A DNA stretch of 64,000 nucleotides, from positions 67,712 through 131,711 of the IMG/VR virus record IMGVR_UViG_3300028887_000079; one strand, written 5' to 3'. The stretch's first letter is position 1. Each line of letters starts with the position of its first letter. Positions 9,910 through 24,482 of the stretch are shown in pieces. The translations under genes were made by a program, and so were the position numbers. The notes beneath the pieces are model-generated. The model was not told the DNA's origin. It made no database searches and saw only the letters and a program-made list of their open reading frames with translations. Source of the stretch: a virus. Taxonomy: Duplodnaviria; Caudoviricetes.

Positions 9910-10674
9910 TTAGAAAGTGTCCCAAATGAGCTGGTTCAACTTGGCGACTGCACAACTAATCATATGCCCGCGGTTGTATCCGTAAGCCCGGATGAACTCC
10001 GGAACGGATGTGACCGGCTTGATGTAGGTGAACGAGTCAACCGAATCAAAGTCAATATAGCGTGCGAGTTTGGAAGTGATGCCGAGGCCGTGAATATGCA
10101 CATCGCGAGCGCGGGCATACCAAACGAGTTCACGCATCAGGCGGGCAACATCGTGGCAGTTCGTCAAACCGGATCCGGCAACGCCACCAATAGCGAAGAA
10201 GCCGCCGGGGCCGACCTGCTGGCAGTAATCGGCGAACTTTTGAATCGGGTCAAAGATATGCCAAACGAGGGTAGGTTCCTCGCCGACAAGTTTGATGAGT
10301 TTGTCACGGAGACGCGCATATTCCTTTTCGCCAACCACGGACTGAATATCCAGTTCGAAGAAGTGAGTGAAATACTTGCGGTATTTCTTGATGAAAGCCG
10401 CGTAGTCTTCCACATACTTGTCGAGGTTAAATTCGCCCTTGAGTTTGCCCTTCTTGTGCGCCATCATCATAGAGAAGGCGCCGGAGTCAAGCAAGATTTC
10501 TTGTCCCGGTTCGGGACCTGAATAAAGCTCCAGCGCCTCCTCAACGCGCTCGGGGGATGCCTTGGACAAGTAATAGAACGACACAAGGCAATACTTGAAT
10601 TTGTATTTACGGAATGCTTCTTTCGAGACGGACGCATGAAGCTTTCCGATGTCAAGACCGGCGTAATACTTCAA
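9910..10674 (-). CDS. TGT-fold guanine transglycosylase (DpdA-like, probably DNA-directed)
   Basis: DSGAFS, ELD, VWH, AIGG, HGLG and SVDS motifs; lies next to queC; TTG start after AAGGAGG. Confidence 0.75.
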   Translation of the reverse strand: MKYYAGLDIGKLHASVSKEAFRKYKFKYCLVSFYYLSKASPERVEEALELYSGPEPGQEILLDSGAFSMMMAHKKGKLKGEFNLDKYVEDYAAFIKKYRKYFTHFFELDIQSVVGEKEYARLRDKLIKLVGEEPTLVWHIFDPIQKFADYCQQVGPGGFFAIGGVAGSGLTNCHDVARLMRELVWYARARDVHIHGLGITSKLARYIDFDSVDSFTYIKPVTSVPEFIRAYGYNRGHMISCAVAKLNQLIWDTF

Positions 10675-10685
10675 AGCGGACCTCC

Positions 10686-11279
10686 TTACACCTTGTCCCA
10701 ACCGATAATGTCAAAGTTTTCTTCGCCTTCGGAATTATCGTTGACCGGACCTTCGGAACCATCAACATCCACCGGGCATTCAGGTTCAGCGGCGGGCGCA
10801 TTGGATTCGCCAACAATTTCGGAAGCGATGCCTGCTTCTTGCGGGAGCATGTTGCGCTTCTTGAGAATCTTGGGATCGAGCGGGCGGATGTTCTTGATGT
10901 CCGTGATGATGTTTTTCATTTCAACAAGATACTTGGAGTGAACGCGGCCGCCCATAATTTCCTTCGCAACGGAAGCAAAGTCCAGCTTACCGAGGGACTG
11001 TGTCACGTTGTCGATAATGCGGAATTCGTCTTCAGCCTCCTTGTCAAGGTCGGAGATGATGCACGGAATTTCGGACAAGCCAAGTTTCTGCGCAGCCATA
11101 AGACGGCCGTGGCCGGTGATGACAACATGTTCGGCGTTCACCACAATCGGAATTTGGAAGCCGAAGCATTCAATGGAGTTCGCGATCGAGTCCACATTGT
11201 CTGCGTGAGTCTTGTTGTTGTTCTTGTAAGGATAGATGTCCTTTACGGGGAGATAAACGATTTCGAGTTTTTTAGTCAT
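10686..11279 (-). CDS. ParB/Srx N-terminal domain protein
   Basis: PYKNN, FGFQIPIVV, GHGRLMAA and RIIDN motifs. Confidence 0.9.
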   Translation of the reverse strand: MTKKLEIVYLPVKDIYPYKNNNKTHADNVDSIANSIECFGFQIPIVVNAEHVVITGHGRLMAAQKLGLSEIPCIISDLDKEAEDEFRIIDNVTQSLGKLDFASVAKEIMGGRVHSKYLVEMKNIITDIKNIRPLDPKILKKRNMLPQEAGIASEIVGESNAPAAEPECPVDVDGSEGPVNDNSEGEENFDIIGWDKV

Positions 11280-11438
11280 AGTAACCAAATATACGAAAGC
11301 GGGCGCCTAAATCCAGCGCCCGCTTTACAAGGAAAGAAAAAACATGAAACCGCCACCGGAGTTCGGATTTCCACCGTATTAAACAGGACTGTCTCCCGTC
11401 AGGTGGCGGCTACCCTCATGAGGTATGACTAAATATAC

Positions 11439-11557
11439 GATGCCAGTGACTCGGGGAAGGATCGAACTTCCGAGGATAGAGGCCCATCCAAGTCGCGGCG
11501 CCTCTGTTTCCGCGACTCACGGCTTGCCAACCACCGCTCACGCAAGCCACTGACATC
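11439..11557 (-). ncRNA. tRNA-like structured RNA with extended terminal stem
   Basis: 15-bp 5'/3' stem, D-like arm, two hairpins and T-arm GGAAG-TTCGATC-CTTCC. Confidence 0.55.
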
Positions 11558-11891
11558 AAAAAGAATGTTCGCCCCAATCGGCTCGGGGATGCTTATGGCG
11601 GAATGCTTCGTGCCACACCTTGCCGAGATTTGATACATGAAACACTGTATCGGAGCAAGAAAAATCGGGCCCTTTCCTGATTGTCATAAGCCCTTTTGCG
11701 ACCAATGATTCACAAGCAAGAAAGAGTTTTCCTTTCGAATTGCTATTGAGCCCCAAGAAATTGCGATAACCACCGGAGCCCCATCCATTGAAGACCGGAT
11801 AGGTGTTGAAGCCCAATGCGCTTGACATTGCCTTGACTTCTTCGACCGAGCAGGTCACTCCATAAAAACTAAGTCGCAATCCTTTTGACAT
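11556..11891 (-). CDS. hypothetical protein
   Basis: MSKGLRLSFY..., 111 aa, embedded in the RNA array. Confidence 0.55.
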   Translation of the reverse strand: MSKGLRLSFYGVTCSVEEVKAMSSALGFNTYPVFNGWGSGGYRNFLGLNSNSKGKLFLACESLVAKGLMTIRKGPDFSCSDTVFHVSNLGKVWHEAFRHKHPRADWGEHSF

Positions 11892-12380
11892 TTTGAACTC
11901 TCTTAAATGGTATGCGGCAGTTCCGCTCTTACCTGCCCGGTTTCCGCTTTGGGCGGGCGCCGTTAAGCCTCGGAGTAGAACTGCCGCTAGGCATTGGCCA
12001 CTGCTGTTAGCCACCAACTTTTTTGCGGTAGTTAAGTCCCGTCAGGTGTATCGGGCCCTGCGCCGCCACCATTGCCAGGCGTGGAATCCTTCCCGTCTTG
12101 TTCACCGCGCTTCGCCTCGGAGTCCAACCCTTGCGGGTGTATGCCCCACTGGCAGATTACTTCTACAAGAAACTACTCACAGCGGTCGGTTGATGTCTCT
12201 TTGATAGGAGTGAAGTCAACCGAAAAACAAAGCTCTCCTCTTTCAAAATGAAAGGTGCTGGCAAGGGATTCTAGCTTTATGCCACGCGCGGCTCTTCACC
12301 GTCTCAGGGGATTGCTCCCGCACCTCTTTCAAAAGCGCCGCCTCGGAGATGCATTCCCCGAGACTTCTGCCGTGTGCCTA

Positions 12381-12454
12381 AACCCGTTACCGGACTTGAA
12401 CCAGTGACTTCCCGGGAGTGACCACCCGAGCTCTACCAACTGAGCTAAACGCAC
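12381..12454 (-). tRNA. degenerate tRNA, 8-nt anticodon loop TGGTCACT
   Basis: Canonical D arm AGCTCAGTTGGTAGAGC and T loop TTCAAGT; weak acceptor stem. Confidence 0.55.
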
Positions 12455-12689
12455 AAAGGCTCCGACAGCATTTCAAACTTGCGGTGTGCCCTAGCCCGGT
12501 GGGCGATGCGTTCCTCGTAAGGACGGAGCATCTGAGCATCACCAAACACAATATACAAAATGTTCGTCCGCTTCTACTTATTACCCCCAGCCCTTTCGGC
12601 CGCCAGGGACAAACATAAGGTCCGATCCCGAATCGTTTGCGCATGATGCCCAAGCCTAGGACGAGGCACGCACGCCTTCTTTTATGTAG

Positions 12690-12764
12690 GGGCAGGAGCC
12701 GGACTCGAACCGACAACCTCAGGGCCGAAACACCCTGCGCTCTCCCAGTTAGAGCTATCCTGCC
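12690..12764 (-). tRNA. tRNA with non-canonical 8-nt anticodon loop TGTTTCGG
   Basis: Perfect acceptor GGCAGGA/TCCTGCC, intact D and T arms, anticodon stem CAGGG/CCCTG. Confidence 0.75.
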
Positions 12765-13589
12765 ATAGTCCTTGTGGTTGATAGTCACTTTTCATCCGGT
12801 AGTAGCCGAACGAGCCCTGAAGGATGCCGGGCGCTCCGTCTTCACACCCTATTGACGGAACCGAGGGAAACTACTTCACACGGGTAATCAGCCCGCACTA
12901 CGTAGGCGGTCCTGATGCAGTTTGGCCCTCCGCCGGGCGCTGCTTAGTCGGTAGTCGTAACATCCGACCTGCACCAGTCAGTTTTCCGATTTCCACAGAG
13001 GCACGTCCTACGGGGCCACTTCATGCTAGAAGCTCTAACTTCATCGGGAAGCTATTCAAATTCAAGTAGGCGCTGCCGGGGCTTTCCGCTTCCCTATTGG
13101 GTTGCCGCGTCTTGGCTTCGAACCAAGGGAGCGACCACCGGGCTTGGACCCTATTTCATCAGTGCGACAACGCCTGCTTGAATTCAAATTAAGTGGGCAG
13201 GAATGAACCTGCATTGCCCGCGGAGTGCTGTCTTTCCCTGCCGGGATGTTTACACCATTCTGCCGCCGCCGGAGTCCTAAGCACACCGGATATTAACCGA
13301 TGCTCATTTAGACGACCACTTCCGGAATGTTAAAAGGAACGCACAGCACCTGCTGGCACACCACGGGCAGGACCTTACCCCCGGCTAAACGGGTCATGGC
13401 CGCCGGAGCCTAGCAATTTATCTCGAGTTCAGCTAGGACGCTACTGCACGTTCCTTCTAAAGGTTGAATCTCAATGCTTCTACCGGCGTTAAGCGGATCC
13501 AATGGCGACTAACCTGACCCGGCACGGGTGCGACCCGATTTTCAATTAAGCCCACAAAGAACAACGGAATGGGCGCACTGAGATTTTAA

Positions 13590-13727
13590 TGGACCTGCCT
13601 GGAGTCGAACCAGCGCATCCTCAACATCGCTTCTGCCTACCGATTGGCTGTAGCGGTTTCCCGCCCAGTGTTTACACGCACCTTATTTCAGAGCTATCGG
13701 CATATTGCGTTGGTTTGAGGCAAGCCC
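13590..13727 (-). ncRNA. mini tmRNA-like RNA with Ala-type acceptor
   Basis: GGGCTTG/CAGGTCC-A acceptor (G3:U70, A73), T-arm CTGG-TTCGACT-CCAG, CCTCAA/TTGAGG stem. Confidence 0.55.
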
Positions 13728-13755
13728 ACGCGTTCGCAAGCCCAAGATTTTTTAG

Positions 13756-13933
13756 CAGCACCCGCCGGGATCGAACCGGTAGGCTTCCCAAGGAACATCC
13801 TACTACAAGCTTCGGATTCTATTACAAGGGTCGCCAGCGCAGAAACATTGCAATGCCGCTGCCATTTAGAACGGAACCAACCTTCACCTCGGGCAAGTTT
13901 GCAACCCTGCCTCCGGCTATCCGTTCAGGTGCC
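13756..13933 (-). ncRNA. structured RNA with tRNA-like acceptor/T-arm end
   Basis: GGCACCTG/CGGGTGCT terminal stem plus CCGG-TTCGATC-CCGG. Confidence 0.5.
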
Positions 13934-13948
13934 AAAAGATTTTTTTAG

Positions 13949-14022
13949 TAGCGGGGGCAGGACTCGAACGCTGCGACCTCGTGGTTATGAGCCACGCGAG
14001 CTACCAACTGCTCTACCCCGCA
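13949..14022 (-). tRNA. tRNA-Met(CAT), initiator-like
   Basis: Loop CTCATAA, GAGC/GCTC D stem, 1:72 mismatch; one bulged base in the T stem. Confidence 0.9.
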
Positions 14023-14645
14023 TCGGGTTCGGGAACAGCGTTATCCTAGCTTCCGGAGCGCGTCAACGCCCAGTTCCCTGACAGCGGGTTGTTCAATCCC
14101 TATTCTCTGTTGCTGCTACAACATCATCCGACTGCGCTGCCGGCGCGAGGCTGATACGCTCAGGCTCTTAGGCGACACATTCTTACGCTCCAGTGTCTTG
14201 CCCTCTCGGGCGCAACTGGCAACTACGCATCCGCATTTCATTTTTTTGCCGGTCGAGGCGGTGTGCGAGACGGACCGGTGAGATCTTTCCCTGAACTCGG
14301 GGCGATTCTCAAATTCGCTCTTCCGCTGGAGGTCTTTAATTATACCAGCTCTTTTTACGGCTTGCATTCCGCTGCCGCACCCGATTTAGAATTGCGTAGG
14401 ATCTGCAGCGCCCGCGCAACTCACGGAAGAAAAACTTTGCCGTTGCCTTCGCGTGTAACGATTGCCACCCGGCGAATCTATTATACGCTCTACCCCGTGC
14501 TGAAGGGCGGTGTCGCCGACAACGGCGAGAAATTAAAAGCGCATACCCGCGGTCCACCTATATCCGCCAGTATTTAGCCGTCCCGGACACGGCGGGGCAC
14601 AGTGGTTCCAAGAATGACTTGTCTCCCACACGTATGCGCCATTCG

Positions 14646-14998
14646 TGGAGGTGGCGGGAGTCGAACCCGCGTCCAAAAATACTTACGCGCTTGCTACTAC
14701 ACGCTTTTTCCTTGCATTTGCTCTCGCCTTGCCACGCCCAAAAGGAAACGGCGATGCTTCGGCCTACAGCGACAGATTTCGGATATGCGCCTCGCTGTCA
14801 AGCTTCTATCCTAGCCCGATTTGCGACTCGGACTCCATCCCTACGGGCGGCGAGGTGGGTCCAAGGGTTGCCCTAAATTAGGCAGCCTGTGCTACAGGTG
14901 CAGCATTTATTTTTTACAGACTTTTTTACGAGTGCCCACGTCTGTGACCTCGGCGTGCAACTTGCGTATCGGTATCCCTGTCGAAACCAGGCACCCCC
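14646..14998 (-). ncRNA. ssrA: tmRNA, tag (A)AAPVAQAA
   Basis: 5' GGGGGTGCCTGGTTTCGAC; 3' GGACGCGGGTTCGACTCCCGCCACCTCCA; G3:U70; tag ORF 14904-14878 follows ATAAAT. Confidence 0.95.
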
Positions 14999-15004
14999 GA
15001 TAGT

Positions 15005-15217
15005 TTAAGCCTGAGCCGGAGCTTCAGCCGTTTCGGTCTTTTCAGCCTTGGCGCCCTTTTCGGCAGCCTTGGCGGCCTTTTCGGCAGCGCGTTCAGCCTT
15101 GCGCTGTTCACGGAGCGGGGTCAGTTCGGCGAGAACGGCGGCGGTGTCCTTTCCGGCCTTCTTGAGGGTGGAAGCCTTGTGGGCGAGTTTGCGAATCTTC
15201 AACTGTAATTCGGTCAT
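15005..15217 (-). CDS. small basic Ala/Lys-rich protein upstream of tmRNA
   Basis: Strong AAGGAG RBS; 70 aa. Confidence 0.75.
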   Translation of the reverse strand: MTELQLKIRKLAHKASTLKKAGKDTAAVLAELTPLREQRKAERAAEKAAKAAEKGAKAEKTETAEAPAQA

Positions 15218-15323
15218 TTTGATCTCCTTGGTTAAAATGCCAGTTAAATGTCCTCTGTAATATACGGACTTGTGGACTCATTGGCAATGCCCGCCCGAAA
15301 AAAGTCCATTTTTCTGCAAAAAC

Positions 15324-23951: not shown

Positions 23952-24023
23952 GGCACTATAGGCAAGCGGTTACGCCTCCTGAATTTCACTCAGGCGACTG
24001 CGGTTCGACTCCGCATAGTGCTA
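23952..24023 (+). tRNA. tRNA-Glu(TTC)
   Basis: Cloverleaf; CCTGA-ATTTCAC-TCAGG. Confidence 0.9.
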
Positions 24024-24028
24024 CTATT

Positions 24029-24101
24029 GGGACGTTAGCTCAGTTGGTAGAGCACCTGTTTTGCAAGCAGGGGGTCAAGGGTTCGAGCCCCTTACGCTCC
24101 A
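24029..24101 (+). tRNA. tRNA-Ala(TGC)
   Basis: Cloverleaf; G3:U70. Confidence 0.92.
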
Positions 24102-24106
24102 CGAAC

Positions 24107-24188
24107 GGATAGGTATGCAAGTGGTAAAGCAGGCTGACTGTAAATCAGCTCCCTTCGGGGTTCGCGGGTTCAAATCCTACCCTATCCA
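24107..24188 (+). tRNA. tRNA-Tyr(GTA)
   Basis: GCTGA-CTGTAAA-TCAGC; long variable arm. Confidence 0.92.
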
Positions 24189-24196
24189 CTAAACAT

Positions 24197-24268
24197 TGGA
24201 TTGTAGCTCAATGGTAGAGCGGTGCGCCGTTAACGCAAGGGTTGCAGGTTCGAGTCCTGCCTTTCCAG
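24197..24268 (+). tRNA. tRNA-Asn(GTT)
   Basis: Loop CCGTTAA (C33). Confidence 0.85.
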
Positions 24269-24272
24269 CTAT

Positions 24273-24354
24273 GGAAGCGTCCCACAACTGGTGGTGGAGC
24301 GGTCTTGAAAACCGCCGGCCGTAAGGTTTGGGGGTTCGAATCCCTCCGCTTCCG
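24273..24354 (+). tRNA. tRNA-Ser(TGA)
   Basis: GCGGT-CTTGAAA-ACCGC; variable arm. Confidence 0.9.
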
Positions 24355-24360
24355 CTACAT

Positions 24361-24447
24361 AGAGGCGTGGCCGAGTGGTCTAAGGCAGCACTTTGCTAAA
24401 GTGCCGTAGTGAAATACCTACCGCTGGTCCGAATCCAGCCGCCTCTG
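24361..24447 (+). tRNA. tRNA-Ser(GCT)
   Basis: GCACT-TTGCTAA-AGTGC; variable arm. Confidence 0.9.
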
Positions 24448-24450
24448 TCC

Positions 24451-24482
24451 ACGGCGCCACAAGATAGGTTGGCGCCGTTTTT
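24451..24482 (+). terminator. terminator closing the tRNA operon
   Basis: ACGGCGCCA...TGGCGCCGT followed by a T-tract. Confidence 0.75.

What the first reader, a model, noticed from the sequence alone, without database searches (positions are those of the whole stretch)
11439..14998. ~3.6-kb array of structured non-coding RNAs around tmRNA and tRNA-Met
Seen: only one credible ORF lies in this interval. It consists of consecutive modules closed by their own terminal stems and separated by A-rich spacers on the minus strand. Examples: GCGGCAGTTC/GAACTGCCGC (~11915-11989); a multibranch RNA at ~12481-12676; AAGGAACG/CGTTCCTT (~13333-13456); AATCTCA/TGAGATT (~13467-13585); an unexplained ~380-nt block at 14245-14628. 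Known: large phage RNAs (GOLLD, ROOL) often sit in tRNA clusters. Inference: a polycistronic ncRNA operon holding several unclassified RNAs.
Basis: partly seen in the sequence, partly recalled or inferred. Interest (0 to 1): 0.72.

Follow-up and report, generated by a model that had tools for sequence, protein, structure and literature searches.

The report
Phage island of small structured RNAs
A 3.6-kb stretch of a gut/rumen phage genome with only one protein gene is a real island of about twenty small non-coding RNA units: a tmRNA, one true tRNA, several tRNA look-alikes that cannot decode, and at least one new 340-base folded RNA. Related phages shuffle these units like cassettes.

Summary
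The window is half of a 131.7-kb IMG/VR phage. On the minus strand, 14998-11340 carries one conserved ORF (111 aa, winged-helix-like). Rfam recognises only four units: a tmRNA, tRNA-Met and two tRNA-shaped RNAs.

The quoted terminal stems exist. However, 7-10-bp stems occur exactly as often as in shuffled sequence, so they prove nothing.

The real evidence is comparative:
- About ten related gut/rumen phage contigs carry subsets of the same units in different orders, at 72-96% identity.
- Substitutions show no codon periodicity, unlike the two flanking ORFs.
- Base pairs are kept through compensatory changes.

Best-supported units:
- **X/Y RNA** (12244-11905): 10 helices, 17 of 52 pairs with double changes, 0 of 500 shuffles as good. 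It has a hypervariable terminal hairpin and always lies upstream of the winged-helix gene.
- **B RNA** (138 nt): acceptor stem plus T-arm with G3:U70 and A73.
- **tl2**: a tRNA body whose anticodon arm ends in a GNNA tetraloop.

Co-transcription, RNase P/Z processing and function remain inferred. An earlier scan note describes a similar island in another genome, probably the relative studied here.

The parts
15259..15269 (-). Phage promoter motif GTC-CGTATATT, the likely start of the transcription unit
   Evidence: CGTATAWT occurs 26 times in the genome, about 8 expected from my own estimate. Most copies are intergenic, after terminators and before RBS-ATG. It also scores as a sigma-70-like site at 15287-15259. 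Function is inferred.
15005..15217 (-). 70-aa Lys/Ala-rich ORF upstream of the tmRNA
   Evidence: Third-position substitution excess against relatives, p=5e-9. No family assignment.
14643..14998 (-). tmRNA, tag AAPVAQAA*
   Evidence: RF00023 at 156.1 bits against a gathering score of 47, full length; ARAGORN. Conserved in L009 (157.8 bits). Reduced to a 5' remnant in L002. Absent from L005.
14530..14642 (-). Stem-closed unit (9-bp closing stem)
   Evidence: 91.6% identical in L009. MFE z=-2.5. Too few changes for a covariation test.
14436..14528 (-). Stem-closed unit containing a CGTATAAT promoter-like motif (14487-14480)
   Evidence: 93% identical in L009. z=-2.7. Motif found. It could be a promoter region rather than an RNA.
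14315..14435 (-). Segment without a fetched homologue
   Evidence: Absent from L006 and L009. Covered by RNA-library contigs 14299-14489 and 14306-14455 with 1-2 mismatches.
14023..14314 (-). About 290-nt multi-hairpin RNA unit directly upstream of tRNA-Met
   Evidence: 88% identical in L006 and 89% in L009. 71 predicted pairs, 7 kept through double changes among only 3 sequences. RNA-library contigs with word depth 137-202 overlap parts of it (14084-14147, 14228-14313).
13949..14022 (-). tRNA-Met (CAU)
   Evidence: RF00005 at 53.6 bits; ARAGORN.
13756..13933 (-). Unit A: 7-bp acceptor stem plus T-arm enclosing a roughly 145-nt insert
   Evidence: T-arm motif at 13764-13780. Acceptor strands GGCACCU / GGGUGCU flank it and the CUAAAAAA trailer matches that of tRNA-Met. 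The only homologue is near-identical L013. z=-0.7. Structure untested.
13590..13727 (-). Unit B: 138-nt tRNA-top-half RNA with G3:U70 and A73 (mini-tmRNA-like)
   Evidence: Homologues of 137 nt (L005) and 136 nt (L006). They keep G3:U70 while acceptor pair 6 and one T-stem pair change on both sides; 7 compensatory pairs in all. The 3' end is 81% identical to the tmRNA 3' end (D2). The L005 copy scores 17.6 bits, E=0.005, on the tmRNA model.
13467..13585 (-). Stem-closed unit (AAUCUCA / UGAGAUU)
   Evidence: z=-3.5, 0 of 200 shuffles fold as well. The only homologue is near-identical L013. Untested by comparison.
13334..13456 (-). Stem-closed unit (AAGGAACG / CGUUCCUU)
   Evidence: z=-2.3. The only homologue is L013. 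Untested by comparison.
13183..13318 (-). Conserved 136-nt unit ending in a T-arm-like hairpin; partly paralogous to unit E
   Evidence: 85.5% identical in L005. 72% identical in L007/L008, where it lies downstream of the ORF. Only 2 compensatory pairs.
13095..13171 (-). Unit C: tRNA-sized RNA with 8-bp terminal stem and perfect T-arm but no recognisable D or anticodon arm
   Evidence: T-arm at 13111-13127. Fold. An RNA-library contig covers 13078-13165 at depth 58. No diverged homologue fetched.
12770..13067 (-). About 300-nt conserved unit
   Evidence: 94% identical in L005 and 93% in L002 (from 12994). Most one-sided changes keep the pairing, with 1 compensatory pair. No codon periodicity.
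12690..12764 (-). tl1: tRNA-shaped RNA with a non-canonical anticodon loop (6 or 8 nt, no U33)
   Evidence: RF00005 at 46.5 bits. ARAGORN cannot assign an anticodon. The L002 homologue is also non-canonical. The tRNA at the same position in L006 is a normal tRNA-Met.
12556..12684 (-).
   Evidence: Conserved in L005 (96%), L006 (84%, again after a tRNA) and L009 (72%). 5 compensatory pairs.
12478..12555 (-). Unit preceding tl2 (3' half of the 'multibranch RNA')
   Evidence: Conserved in L002, L005 and L012. Separated from the 5' half by an ACP-like ORF in L002.
12381..12454 (-). tl2: tRNA mimic whose anticodon arm is a closed hairpin with a GNNA tetraloop
   Evidence: RF00005 at 32.1 bits. Five homologues keep the D-arm and the four full-length ones also keep the T-arm. 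The 'anticodon' is GUCA, GAUA, GUUA or GGCA closed by G-C.
12250..12375 (-). Unit between tl2 and X/Y
   Evidence: 97.6% identical in L002, 100% in L012, partial in L009. z=-1.1. Untested.
11905..12244 (-). X/Y RNA: about 340-nt structured RNA with 10 core helices (two candidate pseudoknots) plus a hypervariable terminal hairpin (11987-11914)
   Evidence: Present in every relative (L002, L005-L013, L016, L018), always upstream of the 111-aa gene family. 52 pairs, 97.8% canonical, 17 with double changes, 0 of 500 shuffles as high, slid controls 1-4. The terminal hairpin has 8-13-bp closing stems of unrelated sequence in 7 lineages. No codon periodicity, p=0.90, n=362. No Rfam hit.
11556..11891 (-). 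111-aa ORF with a winged-helix (MarR/PadR/TubR-like) fold
   Evidence: 9 homologous clusters. phrog_13561, function unknown. AF2 pLDDT 73.6. Foldseek top hits are all winged-helix proteins at E 0.03-0.1. Atlas structure neighbours are MarR. Codon periodicity p=3e-13.
11441..11555 (-). Unit D: tRNA-like RNA with 13-bp terminal stem and perfect T-arm
   Evidence: T-arm at 11455-11471. z=-2.8. 95% identical in L002. A T-arm element follows the ORF in L002, L005, L007 and L009 as well; in L007 it scores 40.8 bits as tRNA.
11340..11439 (-). Unit E: small RNA with its own CGTATATT motif (11439-11432) and a roughly 62-nt stem-closed core
   Evidence: 88-99% identical in L002, L005, L009, L012 and L013. 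The conserved core is followed by a variable tail and terminator.
11296..11326 (-). Intrinsic terminator (12-bp stem, 8 G-C) ending the island
   Evidence: The hairpin sequence differs in L009 while the stem is kept. The next promoter motif follows at 11295.

Best explanation
This is an accessory 'RNA island' of a lineage of 130-kb-class gut/rumen phages. It is a co-oriented string of about 20 small non-coding RNA units between a phage promoter (about 15266) and a terminator (11326-11296).

Shown:
- The units are non-coding.
- They are exchanged, lost and re-ordered as cassettes between relatives.
- Several are held under selection for RNA secondary structure.

The units fall into three kinds:
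1. Genuine translation RNAs: tmRNA and tRNA-Met.
2. tRNA mimics that cannot decode. tl1 and tl2 are tRNA bodies with a closed or odd anticodon arm. A, B, C and D keep only the acceptor/T-arm top half. B carries the alanine identity elements G3:U70 and A73, as tmRNA does.
3. Unrelated folded RNAs. The best-supported is the 340-nt X/Y RNA, which always precedes a winged-helix protein gene.

Inferred mechanism:
- The island is transcribed as one or a few long precursors.
- Each tRNA-like end is a handle for host RNase P (5' cut) and for RNase Z plus the CCA-adding enzyme (3' cut). All units share the CCA-less, YUA-initiated trailers of the phage's canonical tRNAs. These cuts would release the neighbouring RNAs as separate stable molecules, as in the T4 tRNA cluster.

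Speculative:
- The mimics occupy or mislead host tRNA-binding factors (tRNA-targeting defence nucleases, AlaRS, SmpB, processing enzymes), while tmRNA and tRNA-Met sustain translation.
- X/Y acts as a 5' leader or RNA partner of the winged-helix protein.
For: Non-coding:
- Rfam and ARAGORN find only tmRNA and three tRNA-type hits.
- No family hits for other ORFs.
- Substitutions lack codon periodicity in every unit but show it strongly in both ORFs.

Cassette mosaicism: blastn maps against L002, L005-L013, L016 and L018 show units present, absent or re-ordered.

Selection on structure:
- X/Y.
- B.
- The 290-nt unit.
- The unit after tl1.
- The GNNA cap of tl2.
- RNA units are more conserved at nucleotide level than the adjacent protein gene. 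In L006 the units are 84-94% identical against 71-77% for the ORF; in L007 X/Y is 78% against 72%.

tRNA-likeness:
- T-arm motifs are enriched only here.
- 3' ends are shared with tRNA-Met and tmRNA (D1 and D2).
- Trailers match those of the canonical phage tRNAs, and none encodes CCA.
- In L010 and L016 a T-arm plus acceptor 3' strand ends a few nt before the 5' end of the conserved X core.

Transcription unit: promoter motif and terminator.

RNA-library contigs from two studies carry pieces of X/Y, tl2, A, B, C and the 290-nt unit.

The phage encodes no SmpB, Ro60, CCA enzyme or RtcB, so host factors must be used.
Against: - No read-level data. Contigs cannot show RNA ends, strand or abundance, and RNA libraries can contain DNA.
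- Internal CGTATAWT motifs at 14487 and 11439 suggest more than one transcript.
- Close relatives lack large parts. L002 lacks 12995-14935, including tRNA-Met and most of the tmRNA. So individual units are dispensable and some may be decaying.
- Thermodynamic and inverted-repeat statistics are at chance level.
- Units A, C, 13334-13585 and 14315-14435 have no diverged homologue, so no structural test.
- The structure tested was partly derived from the same 11-sequence alignment. Each pseudoknot rests on a single covarying position.
- No evidence bears on the decoy function.
Confidence: 0.6

Rival explanations
1. tRNA-gene graveyard. The island is a recombination-prone tRNA/tmRNA region. Most units are decaying remnants of tRNA and tmRNA genes plus spacer DNA, with no function of their own.
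For: - L002 carries a clear tmRNA deletion remnant: the 5' 60 nt plus the acceptor 3' strand, 30.8 bits, below the gathering score.
- Units come and go between phages that are 85-99% identical elsewhere.
- tl1, C and D look like damaged tRNAs.
- Stem counts and MFE z-scores are at chance level.
Against: - B keeps its length (136-138 nt), G3:U70, A73 and its pairing through double changes in phages whose neighbouring protein is only 63% identical.
- tl2 keeps a GNNA cap in five homologues.
- X/Y and the 290-nt unit have no tRNA ancestry and show compensatory changes.
- RNA units are more conserved than the adjacent ORF.

This reading is likely true for some units, but not for the island as a whole.
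Confidence: 0.15
2. Mostly cis-acting elements. X/Y is a long 5' leader (riboswitch-like or protein-responsive) controlling the winged-helix gene. E and others are promoter, terminator or UTR structures rather than free-standing RNAs.
For: - X/Y lies directly upstream of the same gene family in all 11 aligned loci, and its conserved 3' end sits about 10 nt before the Shine-Dalgarno sequence.
- In L007 a TATAAT box sits just before the X 5' end, with no other island unit upstream.
- A 5' AGGAG pairs with an internal CUCCU, which could be an SD/anti-SD-style switch.
- E starts at a promoter motif and ends at a terminator.
Against: - At 340 nt, X/Y is larger than almost all known leaders.
- L006 and L009 have a second gene between X/Y and the 111-aa ORF.
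- This reading cannot explain the tRNA mimics or the units far from any ORF.
Confidence: 0.2
3. Unrecognised small protein genes or another genetic code hide in the interval.
For: Many ORFs of 40-133 aa can be drawn on both strands.
Against: - No family hit at E<=0.1 apart from noise.
- Substitutions are evenly spread over the three codon positions in every unit, while the two real ORFs give p=3e-13 and 5e-9.
- The 4-codon mini-ORF after the X 5' AGGAG is lost in L010 and L016.
Confidence: 0.03

Closest known systems
Phage T4 tRNA gene cluster with the small RNAs RNA C and RNA D
   Same: - A phage locus where tRNA genes and small stable RNAs of unknown function lie together.
- T4 RNAC and RNAD are still 'RNAs of yet unknown functions' (PMC9697503).
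- From my own knowledge, not checked here: they lie in the tRNA cluster and are matured by host RNase P together with the tRNAs.
   Different: - This island is several-fold larger: about 20 units against 8 tRNAs plus 2 RNAs.
- It has only one canonical tRNA.
- It adds a tmRNA, acceptor/T-arm minihelix RNAs and a 340-nt RNA with candidate pseudoknots.
- It is mosaic between relatives.
- There is no sequence similarity.
tmRNA (RF00023) and its tRNA-like domain
   Same: - The island has a bona fide tmRNA.
- Unit B shares tmRNA's topology: an acceptor stem with G3:U70 and A73, a T-arm, and a long helix in place of the anticodon arm.
- Its 3' end is 81% identical to the tmRNA 3' end.
   Different: - B is 138 nt, with no tag reading frame or pseudoknot ring and no 5' UUCGAC D-loop analogue.
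- It fails the Rfam gathering score: no hit in the window, 17.6 bits in L005.
- The phage has no SmpB.
Bacterial and phage Y RNAs (YrlA), which mimic tRNA (PMC4201824)
   Same: Non-coding RNAs that copy the tRNA T-arm and D-arm and are found in bacteria and some phages. They are modular, combining a stem with a tRNA-like domain.
   Different: - No Rfam Y-RNA hit.
- No Ro60/TROVE or RtcB gene in the phage.
- These mimics have free acceptor-type ends rather than a Ro-binding stem.
GOLLD and ROOL large phage RNAs
   Same: Large structured RNAs of unknown function that tend to sit beside tRNA genes in phages and prophages.
   Different: - No match to either family, even at E<=10.
- X/Y is half their size or less and is tied to a winged-helix gene.
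Catalogue of about 10,000 candidate structured RNAs in IMG/VR viruses (PMC10690425)
   Same: That survey reports many tRNA-like candidates and upstream-of-gene candidates in phage metagenomes, so individual motifs here may already be listed there.
   Different: I could not compare sequences with that catalogue. As far as I read, it describes single motifs, not a dense mosaic island.

Membership tests
tmRNA (RF00023), unit 14643-14998 | Covariance-model score above the gathering score, over the full length | tested here: met
   156.1 bits against 47, model positions 1-374.
tmRNA (RF00023), unit 14643-14998 | Tag reading frame ending in Ala-Ala-stop, and an acceptor stem with G3:U70 | tested here: met
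   Tag AAPVAQAA*. Acceptor strands GGGGGUG / CACCUCC give G3:U70.
tmRNA, unit B 13590-13727 | Model score above the gathering score, and an mRNA-like tag region | tested here: not met
   No hit in the window at E<=10. The L005 homologue scores 17.6 bits, below 47. At 138 nt there is no room for a tag ORF or pseudoknots. It works like the tRNA-like domain only.
tRNA (RF00005), 13949-14022 | Cloverleaf model score and a 7-nt anticodon loop with U33 | tested here: met
   53.6 bits, loop CUCAUAA, anticodon CAU.
tRNA (decoding), tl1 12690-12764 and tl2 12381-12454 | A 7-nt anticodon loop with U33 and a readable triplet | tested here: not met
   Model scores pass (46.5 and 32.1 bits). However, ARAGORN reports 2- and 4-base 'anticodons'. 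The tl2 arm is a 6-bp stem with a GNNA tetraloop in 5 homologues. tl1 has a 6- or 8-nt loop without U33.
GOLLD / ROOL | Match to the Rfam covariance model | tested here: not met
   No hit at E<=10 in 11200-15300, nor at E<=0.05 in relatives' loci.
Y RNA / YrlA with Ro60 | Rfam match, and a Ro60 (TROVE) gene nearby | tested here: not met
   No Rfam hit. PF05731 is absent from the whole phage genome, although the search finds it in control genomes.
AlaRS-chargeable tRNA-like RNA (unit B) | G3:U70 in a 7-bp acceptor stem, with discriminator A73 | tested here: met
   Present in the window, L005 and L006 despite changes at other acceptor pairs. That G3:U70 is the major AlaRS determinant is established knowledge.
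AlaRS-chargeable tRNA-like RNA (unit B) | A mature 3' CCA end and actual aminoacylation | not testable with these tools
   CCA is not encoded. This needs processing data and a charging assay.
Cis-regulatory 5' leader (X/Y RNA) | A constant position upstream of one gene family | tested here: met
   Upstream of an MSKG...-type ORF in all 11 aligned loci. An extra gene (a paralogue in L006) intervenes before the 111-aa ORF in L006 and L009.
Cis-regulatory 5' leader (X/Y RNA) | Alternative structures that gate the ribosome-binding site or a terminator | tested here: inconclusive
   5' AGGAG pairs with an internal CUCCU, with one covarying pair. An alternative closing helix with the 3' CCUUU tail appears in the RNAalifold model. 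No conserved pairing with the gene's own SD was found.
RNase P/Z-punctuated polycistronic precursor (T4-like) | Units co-oriented between one promoter and one terminator, with tRNA-like junctions | tested here: met
   Weaker internal promoter motifs also exist.
RNase P/Z-punctuated polycistronic precursor (T4-like) | Observed cleavage at the junctions | not testable with these tools
   Only assembled contigs of RNA libraries were available.

The most novel reading that the evidence does not exclude
The island is a dedicated RNA arsenal for host takeover, made of two parts.

1. A family of tRNA top-half and anticodon-less mimics. Host RNase P, RNase Z and CCA enzyme would mature them. For B, AlaRS would alanylate it. 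They would then act as decoys or inhibitors of tRNA-directed immunity or of trans-translation.

2. A new 340-nt RNA with two candidate pseudoknots. It would form a ribonucleoprotein with its winged-helix partner. The hypervariable terminal hairpin would set specificity. The conserved palindromic GGCC loop (12000-11995 region) would mediate dimerisation.

Cassette shuffling would then be an RNA-level arms race.
Probability: 0.18. Interest if true: 0.85.

Novelty: new variant of a known kind. Interest (0 to 1): 0.68.

Why it matters
Phage tRNA clusters are usually read as codon-usage helpers. More recently they have also been read as spare parts against tRNA-cleaving defences. Here one true tRNA and a tmRNA are outnumbered by conserved RNAs that copy only parts of a tRNA, and by folded RNAs with no known relative. 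All of them are exchanged as cassettes among gut and rumen phages.

If the units are processed and stable, three things follow:
- The locus offers a compact natural set of tRNA mimics: anticodon-less, top-half-only and alanine-identity. These can be used to ask what host tRNA-binding machinery phages target.
- At least one new RNA family (X/Y) has good covariation support and a dedicated protein partner.
- The locus shows that long 'gene-free' gaps in phage genomes can be dense with RNA genes that annotation pipelines miss.

Tried and rejected
**Statistics that gave nothing**
- Sliding 150-nt MFE z-scores over 8-19 kb on both strands: the island is not distinctive.
- Counts of exact 7-10-nt inverted repeats match shuffles, so terminal stems alone are no evidence.

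**Searches with no useful hit**
- blastn against 50,697 phage records: only the tRNA-Met segment matches.
- IMG/VR holds only one relative, found four ways.
- The metagenome pattern scan gave 6 loci. L016 and L018 are true X/Y homologues and L019 is the L002 phage again. L015, L017 and L020 are chance matches.
- Genome contigs: the X/Y pattern gave 0 hits. A back-translated tmRNA-tag pattern gave 8 hits, none a tmRNA. No host or prophage lead resulted.
- No SmpB, Ro60/TROVE, CCA-adding enzyme or RtcB in the phage.

**Helices replaced in the X/Y model**
- I replaced several RNAalifold helices of X/Y (178-181:186-189, 191-194:205-208, 261-264:274-277 and the 27-32:392-397 closing helix) where L010, L016 or L002 break them and a shifted pairing covaries instead.
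- The 4-codon mini-ORF after the X 5' AGGAG is not conserved.

**Weak or unusable observations**
- I first took the plus-strand ORF 10614-11432 as the flanking gene. It is probably the antisense shadow of a minus-strand ParB-like gene.
- The winged-helix fold search is weak (best E=0.03), so it gives a fold class only.
- Read laying showed no RNA-library contig over ORF 11338-11885 or over 15174-15300.
- Joints in RNA-library contigs (12500 to 14299, 12448 to 13946) probably come from relatives with another cassette order. They do not show splicing or co-transcription.

Full report
**Where this is.** The window is bases 67712-131711 of a 131,711-bp IMG/VR virus record that CheckV rates as complete. 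Related contigs come from bovine and other gut metagenomes. Genes around the finding run on the minus strand. The relatives' gene calls show the order: 111-aa ORF, ParB-like gene, QueC and so on. I first took the plus-strand ORF 10614-11432 as a flank. It is probably the antisense shadow of the ParB-like gene 11288-10686.

**Checking the observation.** ARAGORN and Rfam find four genes on the minus strand of the interval:
- a full-length tmRNA (14998-14643, 156 bits, tag AAPVAQAA*);
- tRNA-Met (14022-13949);
- two tRNA-type hits for which no anticodon can be assigned (12764-12690 and 12454-12381).

A permissive Rfam search (E<=10) of 11200-15300 adds nothing credible. In particular there is no GOLLD, ROOL, Y RNA, intron or riboswitch.

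Only one ORF is real, 11891-11556:
- it has nine homologous protein clusters;
- it has a PHROG of unknown function;
- it shows a strong third-codon-position excess of substitutions (81/63/165, p=3e-13).

The other ORFs of 73 aa or more that I scanned hit no family.

But 7-, 8-, 9- and 10-nt inverted repeats spanning 50-220 nt number 34, 8, 2 and 1 in the array, against 34.9, 9.9, 2.3 and 0.6 in dinucleotide shuffles. Sliding MFE z-scores are unremarkable. So 'modules closed by their own stems' is not evidence in itself.

The feature that is far above chance is the tRNA T-arm motif. It occurs eight times on the minus strand of the island, four times outside called genes (13764, 13598, 13111, 11455). 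The rest of the genome has two stray matches over both strands.

**Relatives and the cassette pattern.** IMG/VR holds one relative (L002). A protein search with the 111-aa ORF followed by contig look-ups, plus one metagenome pattern scan, gave L005-L013, L016 and L018. Mapping the island onto them shows a mosaic:

| Locus | What it carries |
|---|---|
| L002 | Keeps 11352-12556 and 12631-12994 at 85-89%. Lacks 12995-14935, leaving a tmRNA remnant. Has an ACP-like ORF where the window has 12557-12630. |
| L005 | Lacks the tmRNA and tRNA-Met. Keeps B, 13318-13182 and 13067-12412. |
| L006 | Keeps 14314-14028, the core of B, 12684-12556 and X/Y, among other units that the window lacks. |
| L009 | Keeps the tmRNA, 14642-14436 and most of the 290-nt unit. 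|
| L007/L008 | Keep only X/Y, plus the 13318-13183 unit downstream of the ORF. |

The RNA units are often better conserved than the adjacent protein gene. In L006 they are 84-94% identical against 71-77% for the ORF. Substitutions in every unit are flat over the three codon positions (X/Y 121/124/117, p=0.90). The two ORFs give p=3e-13 and 5e-9.

- The 'multibranch RNA 12481-12676' is two independent cassettes.
- The '380-nt block' breaks at about 14436, 14314 and 14277.

**The X/Y RNA (12244-11905).** This unit is in every relative and always lies directly upstream of an MSKG...-type ORF. RNAalifold on 11 sequences gave 62 pairs, 14 of them compensated. I revised helices that L002, L010 or L016 break in favour of shifted pairings that covary. 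I then counted the revised model:
- 52 pairs in 10 helices, 97.8% canonical;
- 17 pairs with changes on both sides;
- none of 500 shuffles reaches any of the five measures;
- slid controls give 1-4 such pairs.

Every helix has at least one compensated pair. Two helices cross others (12239-12235 with 12210-12206, and 12185-12182 with 12108-12105). They would make H-type pseudoknots, but each rests on one covarying position. One domain, with a GCAA-capped hairpin, is missing in L002 and replaced in L007.

Between a conserved CUAG and a conserved CAUACC, every lineage has a hairpin with an 8-13-bp closing stem of unrelated sequence. There are seven versions.

Caveats: the model was partly derived from the alignment it was counted on; the sequences are related; and cells are not independent events.

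The downstream protein models as a winged helix (pLDDT 73.6). Foldseek hits are uniformly MarR/PadR/TubR-like but weak, and the Atlas agrees.

**tRNA mimics.**

*Unit B* is 138 nt in the window, 137 nt in L005 and 136 nt in L006.
- It has a 7-bp acceptor stem, a T-arm, and a long irregular helix ending in a conserved junction.
- G3:U70 and A73 are kept, while acceptor pair 6, a T-stem pair (three pair types) and five other pairs change on both sides.
- Its 3' end is 81% identical to that of the tmRNA.
- The L005 copy is weakly seen by the tmRNA model (17.6 bits, E=0.005).
- So it works like a tmRNA tRNA-like domain but is not a tmRNA.

*tl2* keeps D-arm, T-arm and acceptor. Its 'four-base anticodon' (GUCA, GAUA, GUUA, GGCA) is a GNNA tetraloop on a 6-bp stem. 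It cannot decode.

*tl1* has a 6- or 8-nt loop without U33. The tRNA at the same position in L006 is a normal tRNA-Met, followed by the same downstream unit.

*A, C and D* carry a terminal stem with an adjacent T-arm. For A and C no diverged homologue was available. A T-arm element follows the ORF in L002, L005, L007 and L009 as well.

None of the phage's tRNAs encodes CCA. The trailers of tRNA-Met, A, B, tl1 and tl2 begin YUA, like those of the six canonical tRNAs at 23952-24451. In L010 and L016 a T-arm plus acceptor 3' strand ends a few nucleotides before the 5' end of the conserved X core.

**Other units.**
- The 290-nt unit before tRNA-Met has 7 compensated pairs among three sequences.
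- The unit after tl1 has 5.
- 13067-12770 and E are too conserved to test.
- 13318-13183 shows little predicted structure.

**Transcription.** The motif CGTATAWT, often preceded by GTC, occurs 26 times in the genome (about 8 expected from my own estimate). It mostly lies after terminators and before ribosome-binding sites. A full copy lies at 15269-15259, upstream of the 70-aa ORF and the tmRNA. A 12-bp terminator lies at 11326-11296, and the next promoter motif follows at 11295. Weaker copies lie at 14487 and 11439; the latter would give E its own promoter.

Contigs assembled from RNA libraries of two studies carry pieces of X/Y (three runs), tl2, 12836-13052, C, B, A and the 14084-14489 region. 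These show presence in RNA libraries only. They do not show ends, strand or level.

**Mechanism.**
- *Shown:* a non-coding, cassette-built island with several RNAs under structural selection.
- *Inferred:* one or a few precursors are cut by host RNase P and RNase Z at the tRNA-like junctions. The phage has no CCA enzyme, SmpB, Ro60 or RtcB of its own. The cuts would release the intervening RNAs, as in the T4 tRNA cluster, whose RNA C and RNA D remain of unknown function (PMC9697503).
- *Speculative:* the mimics titrate or mislead host tRNA-binding factors. Anticodon nucleases are a known antiviral strategy (PMC13191261). X/Y may be a leader or RNA partner of the winged-helix protein.

**Rivals.**
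- A tRNA graveyard is likely for some units, as the L002 tmRNA remnant shows. It does not explain B, tl2 or X/Y.
- Purely cis-acting elements are possible for X/Y and E.
- Hidden coding is rejected.

**Novelty.** Phage tRNA clusters with unexplained small RNAs, phage tmRNAs and tRNA-mimicking Y RNAs (PMC4201824) are known. Thousands of candidate phage RNA motifs have been catalogued (PMC10690425). I could not check that catalogue for these sequences. What differs here:
- the density, with about 20 units in 3.6 kb;
- the predominance of non-decoding mimics over true tRNAs;
- the cassette mosaicism;
- the well-supported X/Y family with its protein partner.

I rate it a new variant of a known kind that contains new RNA families. 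Earlier notes of this scan describe the same stretch, and a similar island in another genome that is probably the L002 phage.

Noticed in passing
whole genome; window minus strand 60914, 40299, 35843, 20056, 15266, 11295, 7768, 1458 and others: A phage-specific promoter-like motif, (GGAC)WWGTC-CGTATAWT, occurs 26 times (20 on the minus strand). It typically lies right after terminators and 20-40 nt before RBS-ATG.
   Followed up: partly
window 10614-11432 (+) versus 10686-11288 (-): The long plus-strand ORF is probably an antisense shadow. The minus-strand 200-aa ORF is ParB-like (TIGR00180 at 42.5 bits, below its cutoff). It matches the ParB_N gene called in relatives, next to a 7-deazaguanine (QueC etc.) module.
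   Followed up: partly
L002:12255-12030 (-) (IMGVR_UViG_3300028832_000004): An ACP-like 74-aa ORF sits inside the RNA island of the relative, exactly where the window has 12557-12630. The same relative has a tmRNA reduced to its 5' 60 nt plus the acceptor 3' strand.
   Followed up: partly
L006:7165-7256 and L007:10356-10462: tRNA-Cys(GCA)-like genes with a long variable arm. In L007 there is also a 22-nt enlarged D-loop. This is unusual for tRNA-Cys and reminiscent of allo-tRNA or tRNA-Sec-like shapes.
   Followed up: no
L005:3692-4228 and L007:11287-12036: Genes with Pfam hits named Tad6 (PF25188) and Tad3 (PF25185) lie within a few kb of the RNA island or cassette in relatives. This hints that the neighbourhood is an accessory or anti-defence region.
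   Followed up: no
window 15043-15084: Two tandem 21-nt copies (95% identical) inside the 70-aa Lys/Ala-rich ORF upstream of the tmRNA.
   Followed up: no
window 13183-13318 and 11340-11432: These two units share a roughly 45-nt sub-motif (…CUCCGG-Y-GGC-R-G…), so they are partial paralogues. The homologue of E in L005 aligns with the 13318 unit.
   Followed up: partly
window 12000-11995: The hairpin in X/Y has a 4-nt palindromic loop, GGCC, conserved in 10 of 11 sequences. Its closing pair covaries (U-A, A-U, G-C). It may be a kissing-loop or dimerisation site.
   Followed up: no
window 23952-24451 (+): A second, conventional cluster of six tRNAs (Glu, Ala, Tyr, Asn, Ser, Ser) separated by only 3-7 nt, all without encoded CCA.
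   Followed up: partly
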